Shown: positions 13,036 through 18,509 of the stretch, in pieces | Layout of the letters: each line of letters begins with the position of its first letter | How positions within the stretch are numbered: position 1 is the stretch's first letter | Sequence record: MF327005 | DNA length: 64,000 nucleotides | Direction: 5' to 3' (one strand) | DNA from: Shigella phage Sf19 | The notes under the pieces: generated by a model | Told to the model about the DNA's origin: nothing | Database searches by the model: none | What the model saw: the letters and a program-made list of their open reading frames with translations, nothing else | Made by a program: the position numbers and the translations under genes

Positions 13036-13112
13036 CTCCGTTTAGCTCAGTTTGGTTTAGCAGCACTTGCTTTGGGAGCAAGGGGTCGAAGGTTCAAATC
13101 CTTCAACGGAGA
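13036..13112 (+). tRNA. tRNA-Pro (anticodon TGG)
   Basis: 7 bp acceptor ctccgtt/aacggag, loop tttggga, GGTTCAAATCC T-arm, CCA encoded. Confidence 0.8.
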
Positions 13113-13121
13113 CCAAATTAT

Positions 13122-13196
13122 ATTCCCGTAGACAAATTAGGTAAAGTCAACACCCTTTCAAGGTGTGGTTTGAGGGTTCAAGTCCCTTCGGGAATG
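13122..13196 (+). tRNA. tRNA-Glu (anticodon TTC)
   Basis: acceptor attcccg/cgggaat, loop ctttcaa, T-arm GGTTCAAGTCC, CCA encoded. Confidence 0.75.
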
Positions 13197-13205
13197 CCAG
13201 TTTTG

Positions 13206-13276
13206 ACAGAAGACCAATTACAGCAAACAAACTTTTCAATTTCGCGCATAGAAATCCAAAAAAGATTTGGTCTGGT
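13206..13276 (+). ncRNA. structured element A: conserved termini CAGAAGACC...GGTCTGGT with AT-rich loop
   Basis: 5' cagaagaccaa pairs with 3' ttggtctggt; same termini as elements B-D. Confidence 0.5.
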
Positions 13277-13286
13277 CATTAAGAAT

Positions 13287-13358
13287 TGCGGGTATAGAGA
13301 AAGGGCGTCTCACATGTCTCATTAGCATGGTATCGGCAGGTTCGACTCCTGCACCCGC
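13287..13358 (+). tRNA. tRNA with CAT anticodon (Met or Ile-lysidine)
   Basis: D-stem gaga/tctc, anticodon arm catgt-ctcatta-gcatg, T-arm gcagg-ttcgact-cctgc. Confidence 0.65.
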
Positions 13359-13377
13359 CTCCAAATTTACAGAAGAC

Positions 13378-13447
13378 CGTTTACAGCAAACAAAACTTAA
13401 AATTTTATTGGAAAAATTTAAAAGAATACGGTCTGGTAATACTAAAC
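13378..13447 (+). ncRNA. structured element B (same family as A; stem agaccgt/acggtct)
   Basis: cagaagaccgtttacagcaaacaa...tacggtctggt; compensatory change relative to element A. Confidence 0.5.
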
Positions 13448-13449
13448 AT

Positions 13450-13522
13450 GGTTAGGAAGCACATAAGGCATGTGCGGTCGGCTGTTAACCGAATGGCACA
13501 GGGTTCGAATCCCTGACTAACC
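13450..13522 (+). tRNA. tRNA-Asn (anticodon GTT)
   Basis: D-stem gcac/gtgc, loop ctgttaa, T-arm caggg-ttcgaat-ccctg, CCA encoded. Confidence 0.7.
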
Positions 13523-13595
13523 GCCAAAATTTGGGAGAGAAGCGATTGCTCACCGATTTGTAAGGTGCAAGTCCTTAGCCTGAATAGAATAAAAT

Positions 13596-13680
13596 GCGTC
13601 GTTATCCCGTAGATGGAAGCGGTGGTGACTGTAAATCACTTGTCATTACGACTCGGTAGGTTCGACTCCTTCACGGCGCA
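13596..13680 (+). tRNA. tRNA-Tyr (anticodon GTA), long variable arm
   Basis: acceptor gcgtcgt/acggcgc, loop ctgtaaa, 85 nt, CCA encoded. Confidence 0.7.
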
Positions 13681-13689
13681 CCAAATAAA

Positions 13690-13763
13690 GGTTATGTAGT
13701 TTAACTGGTCAAAATACTCCCCTGTCACGGGAGATGATGAGGGTTCGAATCCCTTCGTAACCG
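13690..13763 (+). tRNA. tRNA-Asp (anticodon GTC)
   Basis: acceptor ggttatg/cgtaacc, anticodon arm ctccc-ctgtcac-gggag, T-arm GGTTCGAATCC. Confidence 0.8.
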
Positions 13764-13795
13764 CCAAATTTGAGAGGGCTTCTTAGCCCCTCCCT

Positions 13796-13822
13796 TAAAG
13801 AGTTCTTACGAGTATTCTTTAA
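13796..13822 (+). ncRNA. conserved hairpin with loop TTCTTACGAG (copy 1)
   Basis: aaagaGTTCTTACGAGtattcttt; second copy at 17373-17397 with compensatory stem change. Confidence 0.45.
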
Positions 13823-13826
13823 AGGA

Positions 13827-13904
13827 GCAGAAGACCAAATTCAGCAAGTCAATTTAATATTTCAAGCCAATTTAATTTTGAAAAATTTAAAACTTGGTCT
13901 GGTT
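13827..13904 (+). ncRNA. structured element C (same family as A/B)
   Basis: cagaagaccaaattcagcaagtcaa...cttggtctggt. Confidence 0.5.
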
Positions 13905-13915
13905 CCAACAAATTT

Positions 13916-14044
13916 ACAGAAGACCGTTTACAGCAAACAATAAACAATCTATTTCTCTGGTAAAGAAAAGGCGAAGGTTCGATTCCTTCACACGTTACGG
14001 CGTGTTGGTGTAATGGAAGCACTTAAGATAAATACGGTCTGGTA
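13916..14044 (+). ncRNA. structured element D: terminal stem of A-C family enclosing a permuted tRNA-like module (candidate Y-RNA-like ncRNA)
   Basis: cagaagaccgt...acggtctggt termini; internal GAAGG-TTCGATT-CCTTC T-arm, acacg-ttacgg-cgtgt closed acceptor-like stem, gtg-taatGGaag-cac D-arm-like hairpin. Confidence 0.55.
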
Positions 14045-14049
14045 ATCCT

Positions 14050-16860: not shown

Positions 16861-16883
16861 GGGTTCGAATCCTCTATTCTGCA
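16810..16883 (+). tRNA. tRNA-Arg (anticodon ACG)
   Basis: acceptor gcagaat/attctgc, D-stem gttc/gagc, anticodon arm gcaac-ctacgaa-gttgt, CCA encoded. Confidence 0.75.
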
Positions 16884-16904
16884 CCAAATTTAATAGGTAA
16901 CATT

Positions 16905-17132
16905 ATGTATAAACTCATAGTTGAAAAACATAAAGATGACCACAAGATTGAAACAGGTAGATTTGGAGATACTTTCTTTATAGCGGTTGGTTGGCAATGT
17001 GACCCGTTAGAAGTTAGAAAGATTGTTTATAACTTTGCTGGATTAGAACTTAAGCAAGCTATCTTCGAAACATCACTACCTGAAAATAAGGATACTTGCA
17101 ATAACGCATATATTCTTTCAAGAGTTCGTTAG
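16905..17132 (+). CDS. hypothetical small protein between tRNAs
   Basis: 75 aa ORF; stop overlaps first nt of tRNA-Gln. Confidence 0.3.
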   Translation: MYKLIVEKHKDDHKIETGRFGDTFFIAVGWQCDPLEVRKIVYNFAGLELKQAIFETSLPENKDTCNNAYILSRVR

Positions 17133-17203
17133 GGGATTAGTTTACAAGGTTAAAACCTCGGTCTTTGAAATCGAAGAAGATGGTTCAATTCCATCATCCC
17201 CCG
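17131..17203 (+). tRNA. tRNA-Gln (anticodon TTG)
   Basis: loop ctttgaa; unpaired 1:72 (A:C) and G73 as expected for Gln identity; CCA encoded. Confidence 0.7.
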
Positions 17204-17208
17204 CCAAT

Positions 17209-17284
17209 GCTCCATTACTCCAATTGGCAGAGAGGCCAGATTTAAAATCTGTGTTATGTATCGGTTCGAATCCGATATGGAGTA
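17209..17284 (+). tRNA. short (type-I-like) tRNA with Leu anticodon TAA
   Basis: acceptor gctccat/atggagt, loop tttaaaa, T-arm atcgg-ttcgaat-ccgat, A73; D-arm paralogous to 15977 and 16554 tRNAs. Confidence 0.6.
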
Positions 17285-17293
17285 CCAAATATT

Positions 17294-17366
17294 AGCAGTA
17301 TAGCATAACTGGCAATGCTCCAGCCTCTGAAGCTGAAAGATTAAGGTTCAAATCCTTATACTGCTG
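17294..17366 (+). tRNA. tRNA-Gln (anticodon CTG)
   Basis: perfect acceptor agcagta/tactgct, loop ctctgaa, T-arm ttaaggttcaaatcctta, G73, CCA. Confidence 0.7.
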
Positions 17367-17372
17367 CCACTT

Positions 17373-17397
17373 CTAAGGGTTCTTACGAGAGTCCTTA
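17373..17397 (+). ncRNA. conserved hairpin with loop TTCTTACGAG (copy 2)
   Basis: taaggGTTCTTACGAGagtcctta; stem covaries with copy at 13796. Confidence 0.45.
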
Positions 17398-17400
17398 AAT

Positions 17401-17474
17401 GTGGCCTTATCATAAATGGATAATGACCCATGCTGTGAACATGGTCTATACGGGTTCGATTCCCGTAGGTCACC
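17401..17474 (+). tRNA. tRNA-His (anticodon GTG)
   Basis: D-stem tcat/atga, anticodon arm ccatg-ctgtgaa-catgg, C73 discriminator, CCA encoded. Confidence 0.8.
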
Positions 17475-17484
17475 CCAATTTAAT

Positions 17485-17557
17485 AGCTCAATTAGCTTAT
17501 ATGGTTAAAGCGCGTGTCTGAAAAACATGAGAACAGGGTTCAAATCCCGATGGGCTA
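17485..17557 (+). tRNA. tRNA-Phe (anticodon GAA), slightly irregular acceptor/D junction
   Basis: anticodon arm cgtgt-ctgaaaa-acatg, D-stem gctt/aagc, CCA encoded; one extra nt near positions 8-9. Confidence 0.55.
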
Positions 17558-17576
17558 CCAACTTTATAGGTGCATA

Positions 17577-18311
17577 ATGAAAGAGATGACAGAACAAAGT
17601 AAAGAGATTTTTAATCTCCTTAAAACTGGTAATGGTTTCTCAAACCCTCTTATTACTGGTGCAGCAGTTCTTGGTGGTACTATAGCTGCCTCTCAATCAT
17701 TAGTTAACTCAATTAGTTCTGTAACAGACCCAGCTACACAACAGATTTTAGTTGCTGCTGGACTGACAACAGCCTTATTAGGAAGCTTCACAACAAGCCT
17801 TGGAAGTACAACTTCAACGACAAGTACACTTACTGAGTATGGACAAAAGTCTGTAGATGAGTTTTCACAACGTATGCAAGTAGCCAAAGGTTACTCTAAC
17901 GTTATGGGAGCAGCAGGTGAACAGGTTGGATGTACACCATTTAGCGGTATCATGGGCGTAGCTACCGAGTACGGTAATAAAGCGATGGATTTGATTAATA
18001 CCTCCATAGACGCTGTAAATGGCGTTCTAAGCGATTTGCAAGATGCAATCGACCAAGGACTAGATACAATCTCTGAACTCGCTACACAGGCCGTTACAGC
18101 GATTAATGAGGGTATTGCAAAGATTACTGCATATGCTAATGAAGTAACTCAGATGATTGCAGATGAAGCAGCACTGATTGCAGAATACCTGAAAACAAAT
18201 ATTAATGGTTTCCTTGCGAATGTTCTACCAAGCTGGTTTGATGATTCATGTAAAACTGGTGTGATTGATACTATCGCAACTCCAGAGATGAAAGAAGCTC
18301 TGAACAAATAA
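17577..18311 (+). CDS. hypothetical protein (Ser/Thr/Ala-rich; one N-terminal hydrophobic segment)
   Basis: 244 aa from internal ATG with AGGTG RBS; track start 17514 lies inside tRNA-Phe. Confidence 0.5.
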   Translation: MKEMTEQSKEIFNLLKTGNGFSNPLITGAAVLGGTIAASQSLVNSISSVTDPATQQILVAAGLTTALLGSFTTSLGSTTSTTSTLTEYGQKSVDEFSQRMQVAKGYSNVMGAAGEQVGCTPFSGIMGVATEYGNKAMDLINTSIDAVNGVLSDLQDAIDQGLDTISELATQAVTAINEGIAKITAYANEVTQMIADEAALIAEYLKTNINGFLANVLPSWFDDSCKTGVIDTIATPEMKEALNK

Positions 18312-18312
18312 T

Positions 18313-18402
18313 GGAAGATTAACCCTAAAAGGTAAGGGAGCAGTTTGCTAAACTGCCAGTAACCGAGAAATCGGCGTACCAGTTCAAGTCTGGTATCTTC
18401 CT
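18313..18402 (+). tRNA. tRNA-Ser (anticodon GCT), long variable arm
   Basis: perfect acceptor ggaagat/atcttcc, anticodon arm gcagt-ttgctaa-actgc, 90 nt, CCA encoded. Confidence 0.8.
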
Positions 18403-18411
18403 CCAAATTAT

Positions 18412-18484
18412 GTGTCGGTGTCAGAAATGGTTATGTGCCTGTCTGCAAAACAGGTTTATGAGGGTTCGAGTCCCTTCCGATACT
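18412..18484 (+). tRNA. tRNA-Cys (anticodon GCA)
   Basis: anticodon arm cctgt-ctgcaaa-acagg, T-arm gaggg-ttcgagt-ccctt, CCA encoded. Confidence 0.8.
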
Positions 18485-18509
18485 CCAATTTATATTAATA
18501 TCTCTCTCA

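What the first reader, a model, noticed from the sequence alone, without database searches (positions are those of the whole stretch)
13036..18487. Very large tRNA gene cluster with internal promoter
About 27 tRNA genes covering most amino acids lie on one strand within 5.5 kb, with isoacceptor pairs for Lys, Gln, Arg and Ser and two CAT tRNAs. Sigma70-consensus promoters sit at 12889, 12979 and 14517 and a compound terminator at 18510-18569. This implies large-scale reprogramming of translation.
Basis: seen in the sequence. Interest (0 to 1): 0.5.

Follow-up and report, generated by a model that had tools for sequence, protein, structure and literature searches.

The report
Phage tRNA operon hiding Y-like RNAs
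The 27-tRNA cluster is real but ordinary for this phage group (FelixO1/Moogle relatives); the less ordinary part is that it sits just after a Ro60-like RNA-binding protein gene and carries four unannotated small RNAs, one a tRNA mimic, that look like that protein's partner RNAs and recur next to the same gene in very different phages.

Summary
ARAGORN finds 25 tRNAs at default settings and 27 at a 95% threshold, adding Tyr-GTA and a non-canonical Trp-CCA. All lie on the + strand at 13036-18487, cover all 20 amino acids, and there are none elsewhere in the window. The three promoters and the terminator are present, and the promoters are positionally conserved in relatives.

The window is a Mooglevirus (Ounavirinae), 97% identical to Shigella phage Sf17, where 26 of these tRNAs are already annotated. 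The cluster itself is therefore already known.

"Reprogramming of translation" is only partly supported. The tRNAs match the phage's A-ending codons (AGA is 14.7x the host frequency), but orthologous tRNAs are mostly dispensable in phage Bas63.

tRNAs fill only 39% of the 5.45 kb. The gene immediately upstream (11455-12870, DUF2828) models as a Ro60 ring plus vWA domain. Four spacers share a bulged helix followed by CAGCAA. The fourth encloses T arm, acceptor-like hairpin and D arm in the permuted order of bacterial YrlA Y RNA.

The same helix+CAGCAA elements flank DUF2828 genes in diverse phages, always co-oriented, with strong covariation. Rfam has no model for them. Binding and function are inferred, not shown.

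The parts
11455..12870 (+). Ro60-like protein gene (471 aa; DUF2828 + DUF7788/vWA), immediately upstream of the cluster
   Evidence: Pfam DUF7788 5.9e-44 and DUF2828 5.3e-27. PHROG 850 'RNA-binding protein'. AF2 model pLDDT 89.8. Foldseek top 11 PDB hits are all Ro60/TROVE, with 1yvr at TMq 0.66. MIDAS residues D279, S281, S283, T349 and D381 are invariant.
12881..12912 (+). hairpin after the Ro60-like gene, overlapping the promoter-like site at 12889 (TTGACA-17-TAATAT)
   Evidence: the site is conserved in all relatives examined
12979..13008 (+). main operon promoter, TTGACA-18-TATAGT with TG extension
   Evidence: 11 of 12 consensus positions; positionally conserved in L001-L006, L082 and L083
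13036..13115 (+). tRNA-Pro (TGG)
13122..13199 (+). tRNA-Glu (TTC)
13204..13278 (+). Y-like RNA unit U1 (short): outer helix TGAC/GTCA, 3-nt bulge, inner helix AGACCAA/UUGGUCU, 1-nt bulge G, then UUACAGCAA
   Evidence: (24.6 bits)
13287..13363 (+). tRNA (CAT) with a U1xC72 mismatch; identity (fMet, Met or Ile2) unresolved
   Evidence: read from the sequence
13367..13439 (+). Y-like RNA unit U2 (short): outer helix TTAC/GTAA (TTGC/GCAA in L003), inner helix AGACCGU/ACGGUCU, then UUACAGCAA
   Evidence: (30.3 bits)
13450..13526 (+). tRNA-Asn (GTT)
13596..13683 (+). tRNA-Tyr (GTA), long variable arm
   Evidence: ARAGORN at 95% threshold; Rfam 22.8 bits; annotated in Sf17
13690..13766 (+). tRNA-Asp (GTC)
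13824..13906 (+). Y-like RNA unit U3 (short): outer helix GGAGC/GUUCC, inner helix AGACCAA/UUGGUCU, then AUUCAGCAA
   Evidence: (28.9 bits)
13914..14045 (+). Y-like RNA unit U4 (long, YrlA-like tRNA mimic). The same stem+CAGCAA encloses a V hairpin, a T arm (13973-13989), an acceptor-like hairpin (13990-14005) and a D arm (about 14007-14023).
   Evidence: Fold. R1 84.6 bits. Compensatory acceptor-like hairpins in Felixounavirus and Mijalis. Rfam tRNA 28.8 bits on part of it.
14045..14191 (+). conserved, strongly structured RNA segment of unknown role (long terminal stem, three-way junction, UAGCAA in a loop)
   Evidence: MFE -50.1 kcal/mol, z = -5.57; conserved in Sf17, Mijalis and SUSP2
14192..14267 (+). 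tRNA-Lys (TTT)
14347..14423 (+). tRNA (CAT) with G29-31:C39-41 in the anticodon stem and a paired 1:72; identity unresolved
14426..14501 (+). tRNA-Ile (GAT)
14517..14545 (+). internal promoter, TTGACA-17-TATAGT
   Evidence: 11 of 12 consensus positions; conserved in 7 of 8 relatives
14546..14778 (+). conserved non-coding leader between the internal promoter and tRNA-Arg
   Evidence: nhmmer hits in 8 relatives, E down to 2e-60
14779..14855 (+). tRNA-Arg (TCT), reads AGA
   Evidence: AGA is 14.7x the host frequency
14910..14983 (+). conserved tRNA-like RNA (T arm, acceptor, CCA) with a 6-bp stem and 5-nt loop in place of an anticodon arm; not a canonical tRNA
   Evidence: ARAGORN calls it only at an 85% threshold; compensatory T-A to G-C change
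15131..15201 (+). tRNA-Trp (CCA), non-canonical short D arm
   Evidence: Rfam 32.6 bits; ARAGORN at 95% threshold; conserved loop with compensatory stem changes
15216..15620 (+). HNH homing-endonuclease ORF (134 aa), an insertion relative to Sf17 and Mijalis
   Evidence: phrog_2255 3.2e-45; absent in the alignment
15634..15723 (+). tRNA-Ser (TGA)
15724..15976 (+). conserved structured spacer (253 nt)
15977..16053 (+). tRNA-Leu (TAG)
16061..16136 (+). tRNA-Lys (CTT)
16143..16218 (+). tRNA-Ala (TGC)
16225..16299 (+). tRNA-Gly (TCC)
16306..16382 (+). tRNA-Thr (TGT)
16478..16552 (+). tRNA-Val (TAC)
16554..16631 (+). tRNA-Leu (CAA)
16648..16860 (+). conserved small ORF (70 aa) whose last 51 nt overlap tRNA-Arg(ACG)
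   Evidence: phrog_10765 1.1e-52; annotated in Sf17
16810..16886 (+). tRNA-Arg (ACG)
16905..17132 (+). conserved small ORF (75 aa)
   Evidence: phrog_14202 8.9e-43
17131..17206 (+). tRNA-Gln (TTG)
17209..17287 (+). tRNA-Leu (TAA)
17294..17369 (+). tRNA-Gln (CTG)
17401..17477 (+). tRNA-His (GTG)
17485..17560 (+). tRNA-Phe (GAA)
17577..18311 (+). DUF7217 protein ORF (244 aa) inside the cluster
   Evidence: Pfam 6.1e-84; described as 'predicted membrane protein' in Sf17
18313..18405 (+). tRNA-Ser (GCT)
18412..18487 (+). tRNA-Cys (GCA)
18520..18579 (+). operon terminator: long compound hairpin followed by T6
   Evidence: RNAfold, -34.2 kcal/mol for the folded stretch 18488-18600, which includes this hairpin

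Best explanation
What it is. This is the tRNA operon of a Mooglevirus-type (Ounavirinae) phage.

Transcription and processing. Host sigma70 RNA polymerase starts at 12979 (possibly also at 12889) and again at 14517, and stops at the hairpin and T-run at 18520-18579. The long transcripts are cut by the host tRNA-processing enzymes (RNase P, RNase E, 3' trimming; inferred). This yields 27 tRNAs that cover all 20 amino acids and are biased toward the A-ending codons the AT-rich phage prefers.

A second product. The operon also delivers four small non-tRNA RNAs, U1-U4 at 13204-14045, each flanked by tRNAs so that tRNA processing releases them. Each closes into a helix that starts 5'-AGR and ends YCU-G-3'. 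In this phage there is a 3-nt bulge on the 5' strand and a 1-nt bulge on the 3' strand. The helix is followed by a conserved single-stranded YAGCAA. U4 carries a circularly permuted tRNA body (T arm, closed acceptor-like hairpin, D arm) in the same order as the bacterial Y RNA YrlA.

Proposed partner. I propose that these are the Y-RNA-like partners of the Ro60-like ring protein encoded just upstream (11455-12870). Together they would form a phage ribonucleoprotein acting on RNA metabolism or counter-defence, by analogy with Ro60/Y RNA/PNPase.

Shown here: the tRNAs, the promoters and terminator, the protein fold, the RNA structure with covariation, and the genomic association.

Inferred: transcription, processing, physical binding and biological role.
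For: tRNAs.

Identity of the phage and synteny with annotated relatives.

Conserved promoters and the terminator.

Codon match.

Protein:
- DUF2828/DUF7788 by Pfam.
- AF2 model at pLDDT 89.8. Its top 11 PDB matches are all Ro60/TROVE, including phage phiLo Ro60.
- The MIDAS residues are invariant.

RNA in the window:
- The motif AGAAGACC-N5-CAGCAA occurs 4 times, all at 13208-13936 on the + strand, against 0.02 expected.
- The four units share one fold.
- The outer helices covary between units and between relatives.
- The acceptor-like hairpin of U4 is ACACG/CGTGT here, ACTCG/CGAGT in Felixounavirus and ACCCTTC/GAAGGGT in Mijalis.

RNA across 80 IMG/VR loci chosen only for encoding a DUF2828 protein:
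- The seed [AT]GR-N4-N2-4-CAGCAA occurs 198 times on the gene strand and 42 times on the other strand.
- 95 of the 198 have a perfect 7-bp partner downstream, against 10.3 expected. On the other strand it is 2 of 42 against 2.5 expected.
- 45 of 73 hits in the distant loci lie within 500 nt of the gene.

Covariance model R1:
- 50 hits at E <= 0.01 in 1.0 Mb, all on the gene strand.
- 95.5% of cells are paired; 249 cells have double-sided changes against 77.8 in shuffles.
- Covariation score is 0.569 against 0.147 (0 of 500 shuffles) and at most 0.084 for slid controls.

Named phages. The elements also lie in unannotated gaps beside the gene in Mycobacterium phage LeBron (59 bits), Listeria phage LMTA-57 and Campylobacter phage CP30A.

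Link to YrlA. The Rfam YrlA model matches the T/acceptor-like/D part locally (31.4 bits, E = 1.9e-4) in one distant locus.

Literature:
- YrlA topology and its adjacency to Ro60 (PMC4201824).
- The Bas63 ortholog gp130 is Ro60-like, counters the ppl defence, and its authors guessed that Y RNAs hide among the tRNAs.
- Phage phiLo Ro60 binds two adjacent Y-like RNAs and host PNPase (PMC12135203).
Against: - There are no expression, end-mapping or binding data.
- The short units have unremarkable folding z-scores (-0.2 to -1.7). They score 24-30 bits with R1, the same range as chance hits at tandem tRNA junctions in this window and in phage T5. Their support rests on the motif, the helix statistics and conservation, not on the model score.
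- My scan demanded perfect helices, and the R1 alignment is fitted to the model. The percentage paired is therefore inflated, although the seed-versus-shuffle test is not affected.
- The protein is not a Pfam TROVE member. The conserved RNA motif is CAGCAA, not the GNCGAA(N)G of bacterial Y RNAs. Rfam YrlA does not reach threshold anywhere and does not hit the window at all.
- 28 of 75 distant DUF2828 loci showed no unit with my strict seed.
- For the tRNAs, codon matching is not significant over all codons (p = 0.12), and orthologous tRNAs are mostly dispensable in the laboratory.
Confidence: 0.7

Rival explanations
1. This is a plain tRNA operon. The four repeated spacers and the other conserved spacers are only processing or spacing elements (RNase E/III/P guides, transcript stabilisers) or decayed tRNA pseudogenes, with no link to the upstream protein.
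For: The units sit exactly between tRNAs. U4 contains tRNA parts and gets 28.8 bits from the Rfam tRNA model. Tandem tRNA junctions by themselves mimic the T-acceptor-D order and give R1 hits of 15-29 bits. The short units have weak folding z-scores.
Against: 20 distant loci have units next to the DUF2828 gene but no tRNA at all. Examples are L008, L016 and L018, and the Listeria phage LMTA-57 has three units directly upstream of the gene. The conserved single-stranded CAGCAA and the AGR/YCU closing pairs persist across phages of Actinobacteria, Firmicutes, Campylobacter and Gammaproteobacteria while the rest of the helix covaries. Decay would not maintain that pattern.
Confidence: 0.15
2. The repeats act at the DNA level, for example as binding sites of a phage regulator, as recombination or homing-endonuclease targets, or as a small mobile repeat that spreads in tRNA regions.
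For: There are four near-identical 19-nt cores within 730 bp. An HNH endonuclease gene lies in the same cluster. Phage tRNA regions are known hot spots for HNH genes (T5 annotation).
Against: There is strict strand bias: 198 against 42 seeds, and 50 of 50 model hits on the gene strand. Pairing is kept through G-U pairs, which exist only in the + strand RNA (UG at helix position 13/185 in 13 sequences). Compensatory changes keep the helices while the sequence changes. Modules of 35-190 nt of different kinds are inserted between the two helix strands.
Confidence: 0.05
3. The main selective value of the tRNA set is not codon supply. It is replacement of host tRNAs that are cleaved or depleted during infection by anticodon nucleases or retron, PARIS or PrrC-type defences. 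The Ro60-like RNP belongs to the same RNA-damage theme. This rival concerns function only and is compatible with the anatomy above.
For: The set is complete, one tRNA for every amino acid, rather than limited to rare codons. The codon-usage fit is not significant overall. The tRNAs are dispensable on laboratory strains and were proposed as a conditional toolbox, while gp130 counters a defence system. RtcB ligase, polynucleotide kinase and RNA ligase genes accompany DUF2828 genes in Listeria phage LMTA-57 and mycobacteriophage LeBron. That phage tRNAs can evade tRNA-targeting defences is established knowledge recalled from the literature; I did not test it here.
Against: The strongest codon excesses (AGA, ACA, TCA, AAG) are exactly those served by phage tRNAs, as the codon-supply model predicts. 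No anticodon-loop comparison with host tRNAs was made here.
Confidence: 0.3

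Closest known systems
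tRNA gene clusters of Ounavirinae phages (FelixO1, Moogle, Sf13-Sf17, Michonne, SUSP1/2)
   Same: Same genes in the same order. Identity to Sf17 is 97% over 92% of the region, and 26 of the 27 tRNAs are annotated there. Felixounaviruses carry 17-23 tRNAs (PMC8300805).
   Different: This window carries an extra HNH endonuclease ORF and a divergent Trp allele. In the records I looked at, U1-U4 are unannotated or mislabelled as tRNA-OTHER, tRNA-pseudo or hypothetical protein.
Phage T5 tRNA region
   Same: About 25 tRNAs, many internal sigma70 promoters, interspersed HNH endonuclease genes, small ORFs that overlap tRNAs, and eight annotated 'stable RNAs with unknown functions', several of them tRNA-like.
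   Different: The T5 region gives no unit above the tRNA-junction background with R1 (at most 29 bits), and no DUF2828 gene is annotated in the 30-kb stretch I fetched. I did not search the rest of the T5 genome for one. No sequence relationship was found between the T5 stable RNAs and U1-U4.
Bacterial Ro60 (Rsr) with Y RNAs YrlA and YrlB (Salmonella, Mycobacterium smegmatis; Rfam RF02553)
   Same: A ring protein with a vWA domain, encoded next to and co-oriented with its small RNAs. There is one long RNA whose effector module is a tRNA mimic in the order V, T arm, acceptor-like hairpin, D arm, plus shorter RNAs without it. The ends are closed by a stem next to a short conserved motif (PMC4201824).
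   Different: The protein belongs to the DUF2828/DUF7788 families rather than Pfam TROVE, and shares about 12% identity with solved Ro60 structures. The RNA motif is CAGCAA after an AGR...YCU helix instead of GNCGAA(N)G. The Rfam model does not reach threshold. The RNAs are embedded in a tRNA operon.
Thermus phage phiLo Ro60 with Yrl1 and Yrl2
   Same: A phage-encoded Ro60-fold protein with two adjacent Y-like RNAs. Binding was shown, and a complex forms with host PNPase (PMC12135203). It is among the top structural matches (9kop, 9l5y).
   Different: The phiLo RNAs carry the CGAA motif and are not part of a tRNA cluster. No binding data exist for the present family.
Bas63 (Felixounavirus) gp130
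   Different: No RNA was identified there. Here the candidates are located, and they lie in the spacers, not among the annotated tRNAs.

Membership tests
Phage tRNA gene cluster (Ounavirinae type) | Many canonical tRNA genes, co-oriented and closely spaced | tested here: met
   25 at default settings and 27 at relaxed threshold, all on the + strand within 5.45 kb
Phage tRNA gene cluster (Ounavirinae type) | Synteny and sequence identity with annotated clusters of the group | tested here: met
   97% identity to Sf17 with the same tRNA order; 390 related records
Phage tRNA gene cluster (Ounavirinae type) | tRNAs are expressed, processed and charged | not testable with these tools
   Only promoter and terminator consensus and their conservation are available
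Ro60 / TROVE protein family | HEAT-repeat ring followed by a vWA domain with a MIDAS site (fold level) | tested here: met
   AF2 pLDDT 89.8, pTM 0.90. Whole-length Foldseek matches to 1yvr, 1yvp, 2i91, 2nvo, 9kop and 9l5y at E about 1e-7. DxSxS, T and D residues are invariant.
Ro60 / TROVE protein family | Sequence membership (a Pfam TROVE match, or detectable sequence similarity to solved Ro60) | tested here: not met
   Pfam gives DUF2828 and DUF7788 only. phmmer and a profile search against PDB sequences find nothing.
Y RNA (general) | 5' and 3' ends pair into a stem with a bulged helix next to a conserved protein-binding motif | tested here: met
   Outer helix, 3-nt bulge, 7-bp helix and 1-nt bulge in all four units. 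Terminal helix: 8 of 8 pairs show double-sided changes and 94% of cells are paired.
Y RNA (general) | Encoded next to the Ro60 gene and on the same strand | tested here: met
   334-1175 nt downstream in the window. 45 of 73 distant hits lie within 500 nt of the gene, and all model hits are co-oriented with it.
Y RNA (general) | Physically bound by the Ro60 protein | not testable with these tools
   Needs RIP, CLIP or EMSA
YrlA (Rfam RF02553) | tRNA-like module in the order V, T arm, acceptor-like hairpin, D arm | tested here: met
   U4 fold. RNAalifold and R1 covariation in the T arm and the acceptor-like hairpin. A local YrlA hit covers model positions 23-89 in L071.
YrlA (Rfam RF02553) | Reaches the Rfam gathering score (69 bits) | tested here: not met
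   No hit on U4 even at E <= 10. Best hit elsewhere is 31.4 bits. None at gathering score in 11 distant loci.
YrlA (Rfam RF02553) | GNCGAA(N)G motif near the 5' end | tested here: not met
   The conserved motif is YAGCAA (invariant C17-A22 in A3). No CGAA is present in the 5' strand.
Permuted tRNA genes (functional tRNAs made from 3'-half/5'-half genes, as in Cyanidioschyzon) | The 3' half precedes the 5' half and the two halves rebuild a complete tRNA with an anticodon arm | tested here: not met
   The order is permuted, and in distant loci the hairpin loop often begins NCCA. There is no anticodon stem-loop, however; the Y stem takes its place.

The most novel reading that the evidence does not exclude
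DUF2828 proteins and the 'AGR-helix + CAGCAA' RNAs would form a previously undescribed, phage-wide branch of Ro60/Y-RNA ribonucleoproteins. It would be found in phages of Gammaproteobacteria, Campylobacter, Firmicutes and Actinobacteria.

Its RNAs would come in interchangeable formats on one protein-binding stem:
- a bare loop;
- a permuted tRNA mimic;
- a tRNA body without an acceptor stem;
- larger modules.

They would often be produced by riding in tRNA operons and using the host tRNA-processing machinery. The permuted tRNA mimics may have arisen from tandem tRNA junctions. The particle would serve in counter-defence or RNA repair, in line with the ppl phenotype of Bas63 gp130.
Probability: 0.55. 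Interest if true: 0.7.

Novelty: new variant of a known kind. Interest (0 to 1): 0.45.

Why it matters
The tRNA cluster by itself adds nothing new. It is annotated in near-identical genomes.

The embedded RNAs matter for four reasons:
- They turn a published guess ("some tRNAs of Bas63 may be Y RNAs") into four precise candidates with coordinates, a consensus and mutable features. The question of what the Ro60-like anti-defence protein binds becomes directly testable.
- They extend Ro60/Y-RNA biology to a protein family that is annotated in at least 704 GenBank phage genomes, mostly as "hypothetical" or "RNA-binding protein". The associated RNA motif is absent from Rfam.
- They show that the roughly 60% of "tRNA cluster" DNA that is not tRNA can hold functional RNAs that routine annotation skips or mislabels as pseudo-tRNAs.
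- They suggest a simple origin of tRNA-mimicking Y RNAs from tandem tRNA junctions.

Tried and rejected
- Sequence searches of the upstream protein against PDB sequences, both single sequence and profile, found nothing. Only the fold comparison worked.
- A literature search for DUF2828 returned only irrelevant plant and tardigrade papers.
- The supplementary tables of Chen et al. 2014 that list their 22 phages are not held, and two Wolin reviews are not held. I therefore could not check whether any DUF2828 phage was in their set. Their search was restricted to genomes annotated with TROVE.
- The Rfam hits 'tmRNA_permuted' at 14443-14629 (28.4 bits), 'YrlA' at 17423-17546 (21.6 bits), 'Plastid-ycf2' and 'Dicty_Class_I' are sub-threshold. 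They overlap ordinary tRNAs or AT-rich loops, and I rejected them as chance.
- The resemblance of GGUCUGG in the 3' strand to the vertebrate GGUCCGA Ro site is rejected as meaningful. In distant phages the helix sequence changes freely, and only AGR/YCU-G and CAGCAA stay.
- nhmmer with the other spacers found them only in close Ounavirinae. Their covariation is too thin to call a structure: 4 of 60 and 2 of 48 pairs.
- R1 scores cannot by themselves validate the short units, because tRNA junctions reach similar scores.
- The identity of the two CAT tRNAs could not be settled from sequence.

Full report

Yes. ARAGORN at default settings reports 25 tRNA genes, every one on the + strand between 13036 and 18487, and none in the remaining 58 kb of the window. 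The Rfam tRNA model at its gathering score confirms 23. With permissive filters it adds His, a Trp-CCA candidate at 15131-15198 (32.6 bits, above the 29-bit cut-off), and a sub-threshold Tyr-GTA (22.8 bits).

ARAGORN with its threshold lowered to 95% returns exactly 27, all on the + strand. The additions are Tyr 13596-13683 and Trp 15131-15201. Tyr is annotated by tRNAscan-SE in the closest relative. The Trp-like gene is conserved in relatives, with an invariant CUCCAAA loop and compensatory stem changes, but it has an abnormal D arm.

Three Leu tRNAs were overlooked. All 20 amino acids are covered.

The promoter-like sites at 12889, 12979 and 14517 match 10-11 of 12 consensus positions. The raw count of such sites in the region is not above the shuffle expectation (12 against 16.3). 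These three, however, are kept at the same positions in Mooglevirus, Suspvirus and Felixounavirus relatives that are only about 85% identical.

The terminator is a long compound hairpin at 18520-18573 followed by T6, about 10 nt to the right of the coordinates given.

**2. What genome is this?**

The 5.9-kb region matches 390 phage records. The best are Shigella phage Sf17 (97.1% identity over 92%) and SFPB, followed by other Mooglevirus, Suspvirus and Felixounavirus members.

Sf17 has the same tRNAs in the same order, 26 of them annotated. Felixounaviruses are reported to carry 17-23 tRNAs (PMC8300805). The tRNA cluster as such is therefore already known.

**3. Does it reprogram translation?**

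The window is 39.3% GC, against 52% in a 50-kb E. coli K-12 stretch. I compared 57 long phage ORFs (15,571 codons) with 40 annotated E. coli genes.

The phage over-uses AGA 14.7-fold, ACA 5.1-fold, TCA 3.6-fold, AAG 2.9-fold and TTA 2.0-fold. Each of these has a cognate phage tRNA, and 12 of the 14 NNA sense codons are served by a U34 tRNA.

Over all codons, though, the RSCU excess of codons with a Watson-Crick phage tRNA is not significant (p = 0.12). In the related phage Bas63 the tRNA genes were mostly non-essential on four hosts. Codon supply is plausible; "large-scale reprogramming" is not demonstrated. Replacement of host tRNAs lost to defence nucleases is an equally live reading.

**4. 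What else is in the 5.45 kb?**

tRNAs occupy 2,108 nt (39%). There are four ORFs:
- An HNH endonuclease at 15216-15620 (phrog_2255). It is absent from Sf17 and Mijalis.
- Two conserved small ORFs at 16648-16860 and 16905-17132. The first overlaps tRNA-Arg(ACG) by 51 nt.
- A DUF7217 protein at 17577-18311.

About 1.8 kb is non-coding, non-tRNA sequence that is conserved among relatives.

**5. The gene upstream**

ORF 11455-12870 ends 166 nt before the first tRNA and is co-oriented with the cluster. Pfam sees only DUF2828 and DUF7788, and sequence searches of the PDB find nothing.

An AlphaFold2 model built from 33 homologues is confident (pLDDT 89.8, pTM 0.90). Its 11 best PDB matches are all Ro60/TROVE proteins aligned over the whole length: Xenopus Ro60 1yvr (TMq 0.66), 1yvp, 2i91, Deinococcus Rsr 2nvo, and Thermus phage phiLo Ro60 9kop/9l5y. 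After these come isolated vWA domains. The MIDAS residues (D279, S281, S283, T349, D381) are invariant.

Homologues occur in 704 GenBank phages. In cluster L mycobacteriophages they are annotated as "Ro-like RNA binding protein".

**6. Four repeated RNA units**

The motif AGAAGACC-N5-CAGCAA occurs four times in the window, all between 13208 and 13936 on the + strand, against 0.02 expected. Each has GGUCUGG 50-110 nt downstream.

All four fold the same way:
- an outer 4-5-bp helix;
- a 3-nt bulge on the 5' strand;
- a 7-bp inner helix (AGACCNN/NNGGUCU);
- a 1-nt bulge (G) on the 3' strand;
- a single-stranded UUACAGCAA directly after the 5' strand of the helix.

The outer helices differ between units and covary between relatives: TGAC/GTCA, TTAC/GTAA, TTGC/GCAA, GGAGC/GUUCC.

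U1, U2 and U3 (13204-13278, 13367-13439, 13824-13906) enclose AT-rich loops.

U4 (13914-14045) encloses a small hairpin, a perfect T arm (GAAGG-UUCGAUU-CCUUC), a closed hairpin and a D arm (GGUGUAAUGGAAGCAC). This is a tRNA body in circularly permuted order with no anticodon arm. The closed hairpin is ACACG/CGTGT here, ACTCG/CGAGT in Felixounavirus and ACCCTTC/GAAGGGT in Citrobacter phage Mijalis.

This is the order Chen et al. describe for the bacterial Y RNA YrlA: conserved motif near the 5' end, V, T, acceptor-like stem-loop, D (PMC4201824).

U4 is conserved in about 245 GenBank Ounavirinae. In the listed records it is mostly unannotated, and where a feature does lie under the match it is a tRNA, 'tRNA-OTHER', a pseudo-tRNA or a hypothetical protein.

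The units lie exactly between tRNAs: Glu|U1|Met|U2|Asn, then Asp|...U3,U4...|Lys. Ordinary tRNA end-processing would release them. This step is inferred.

**7. Is the association with the protein general?**

I fetched 80 IMG/VR loci selected only for encoding a DUF2828 relative; most are 39-46% identical.

- A more distant relative with the same tRNA-cluster layout (L007, 46% identity) has four units with different helices: AGAAG/CUUCU, AGAGCAC/GUGCUCU, AGAGCAGU/ACUGCUCU with a T arm, and AGGACAC/GUGUCCU. The UUCAGCAA is the same.
- The sequence-only seed [AT]GR-N4-N2-4-CAGCAA occurs 198 times on the gene strand and 42 times on the opposite strand.
- 95 of the 198 have a perfect 7-bp complement 35-200 nt downstream, against 10.3 expected from shuffles. 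On the opposite strand it is 2 of 42 against 2.5 expected.
- 45 of 73 hits in the 75 distant loci lie within 500 nt of the gene.
- The helices nearly always begin AGR and end YCU-G, while the middle changes freely: AGGAUCG/CGAUCCU, AGGUUAG/CUAACCU, AGAAUGU/ACAUUCU and others.

A covariance model built from 13 long units found 50 hits at E <= 0.01 in 1.0 Mb, all on the gene strand. Many were not in the training set.

On the resulting alignment 95.5% of cells pair. 249 cells carry double-sided changes, against 77.8 in shuffles. The covariation score is 0.569, against 0.147 in shuffles (0 of 500 reach it) and at most 0.084 when partners are slid. That alignment is fitted to the model, so the percentage paired leans high. 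The seed-versus-shuffle test does not share this bias.

All 27 distant loci with tRNAs also have units. 20 loci have units but no tRNA, and 28 have neither with my strict seed. All 223 tRNAs in these loci are co-oriented with the gene.

In named phages the units fall in unannotated gaps beside the gene:
- Mycobacterium phage LeBron: 59 bits, downstream of gp53.
- Listeria phage LMTA-57: three units directly upstream, with an RtcB ligase gene nearby.
- Campylobacter phage CP30A.

As a negative control, the phage T5 tRNA region gives at most 29 bits, at tandem tRNA junctions, and 50 kb of E. coli gives no seed with a partner.

**8. Relation to known families**

Rfam 15 has no family that reaches threshold on these elements. 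The YrlA model hits only the T/acceptor-like/D core locally in one distant locus (31.4 bits against a 69-bit gathering score). The conserved motif is CAGCAA rather than GNCGAA(N)G.

The system therefore works like Ro60/YrlA/YrlB, but it fails the sequence-level membership tests for both the protein (Pfam TROVE) and the RNA (RF02553).

Prior art:
- Chen et al. 2014 searched only TROVE-annotated genomes.
- The phiLo study shows a phage Ro60 binding two adjacent Y-like RNAs and host PNPase.
- The PhageMaP preprint reports that Bas63 gp130, the Felixounavirus counterpart of this protein, is Ro60-like, counters the ppl defence and sits before the tRNAs. It guesses that some annotated tRNAs may be Y RNAs, without identifying any.

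The candidates located here are in the spacers, not among the annotated tRNAs.

**9. Mechanism proposed**

Shown:
- the tRNA set;
- conserved promoters and the terminator;
- the Ro60 fold of the upstream protein;
- a structured, covarying, strand-specific RNA family tied to that gene across distant phages.

Inferred:
- co-transcription with the tRNAs from the 12979 promoter;
- release by tRNA processing;
- binding of the AGR-helix/CAGCAA module by the ring protein;
- use of the variable module (bare loop, tRNA mimic, larger domains) to recruit host enzymes or substrates;
- a role in counter-defence or RNA repair.

Tandem tRNA junctions naturally present T arm, acceptor 3' strand, acceptor 5' strand and D arm in the YrlA order, and they give weak model hits. 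This suggests how such mimics could arise inside tRNA arrays. That origin is speculation.

**10. Verdict**

The finding as written is correct but ordinary: a known tRNA cluster of a known phage group. Its functional gloss is only partly supported.

The interest lies in the unannotated Y-like RNAs and their Ro60-like partner. I rate these a new variant of a known kind, with moderate confidence pending expression and binding data.

Noticed in passing
window 15216-15620 (with 15131-15201): An HNH endonuclease ORF lies 15 nt after tRNA-Trp. The ORF is absent from Sf17 and Mijalis, and the window's Trp allele diverges from relatives right at this junction. This looks like a homing-endonuclease insertion with co-conversion of the flank.
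   Followed up: partly
window 14910-14983 (conserved block from about 14864): A conserved tRNA-like RNA with a T arm, acceptor stem and CCA, but with a 6-bp stem and 5-nt loop (UAGCU) where the anticodon arm should be. A compensatory T-A to G-C change supports the stem. ARAGORN calls it 'Ala-AGC' only at an 85% threshold.
   Followed up: partly
window 14045-14191: A 147-nt segment directly after U4 folds into a long stem with a three-way junction (-50.1 kcal/mol, z = -5.6). It is nearly invariant in Sf17, Mijalis and SUSP2 but absent from the Felixounavirus loci. One hairpin loop contains UAGCAA. Function unknown.
   Followed up: partly
window 14546-14778, 14986-15130, 15724-15976, 16383-16477: Four further non-coding spacers are conserved across Mooglevirus and Felixounavirus (nhmmer E from 1e-20 to 1e-71) and predicted to be highly structured. 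There is too little variation to prove a structure.
   Followed up: partly
window 16648-16860 and 16905-17132: Two conserved small ORFs sit inside the cluster. The first runs 51 nt into tRNA-Arg(ACG), and the stop codon of the second overlaps the first bases of tRNA-Gln(TTG). T5 shows similar ORF/tRNA overlaps.
   Followed up: no
window 13802-13812 and 17379-17389: The 11-mer GTTCTTACGAG occurs twice exactly, each time as the loop of a hairpin in a tRNA spacer. With one mismatch allowed there are 5 matches in the window against 0.65 expected.
   Followed up: no
window 13287-13363 and 14347-14423: The two CAT tRNAs split the initiator hallmarks. The first has an unpaired 1:72 (U x C) but no G-C triplet in the anticodon stem. 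The second has the G29-31:C39-41 triplet but a paired 1:72. Which is initiator, elongator or Ile2 cannot be told from sequence.
   Followed up: partly
L071 8509-8620; L034 about 5720-5830: In some distant phages the same stem+CAGCAA encloses a tRNA body in normal order (D arm, anticodon arm, T arm; Rfam tRNA 55 bits) without an acceptor stem. In many permuted units the acceptor-like hairpin loop begins with NCCA.
   Followed up: partly
L086 (Listeria phage LMTA-57) 5302-6455; L037, L040, L043, L049, L054: An RtcB-type 'tRNA-splicing ligase' gene lies 1.3 kb downstream of the DUF2828 gene in the Listeria phage. tmRNA genes lie a few kb downstream of it in several uncultured phage contigs. This is the same RNA-repair neighbourhood as bacterial rsr-yrlA-rtcBA.
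   Followed up: no
L041/L049 about 7750-7960; L074 1160-1345; L081 3385-3600; L008/L018 about 7480-7620: Larger modules of about 130-190 nt inside the same stem share blocks such as GAAGCGGCUA...GACUAACA across unrelated contigs. This may be another conserved RNA domain, and it is not matched by Rfam.
   Followed up: no
window 11007-11378: A DUF5681 protein gene precedes the Ro60-like gene at the start of the rightward transcription unit. Whether it co-occurs with DUF2828 elsewhere was not checked.
   Followed up: no
L090 (phage T5 28-42 kb): The T5 record annotates eight 'stable RNAs with unknown functions' (RNA1, RNA2, RNA3, RNAI, RNAIII, RNAIV, RNA2H, RNAX) between its tRNAs. This is a long-standing unexplained parallel to the non-tRNA RNAs seen here.
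   Followed up: partly
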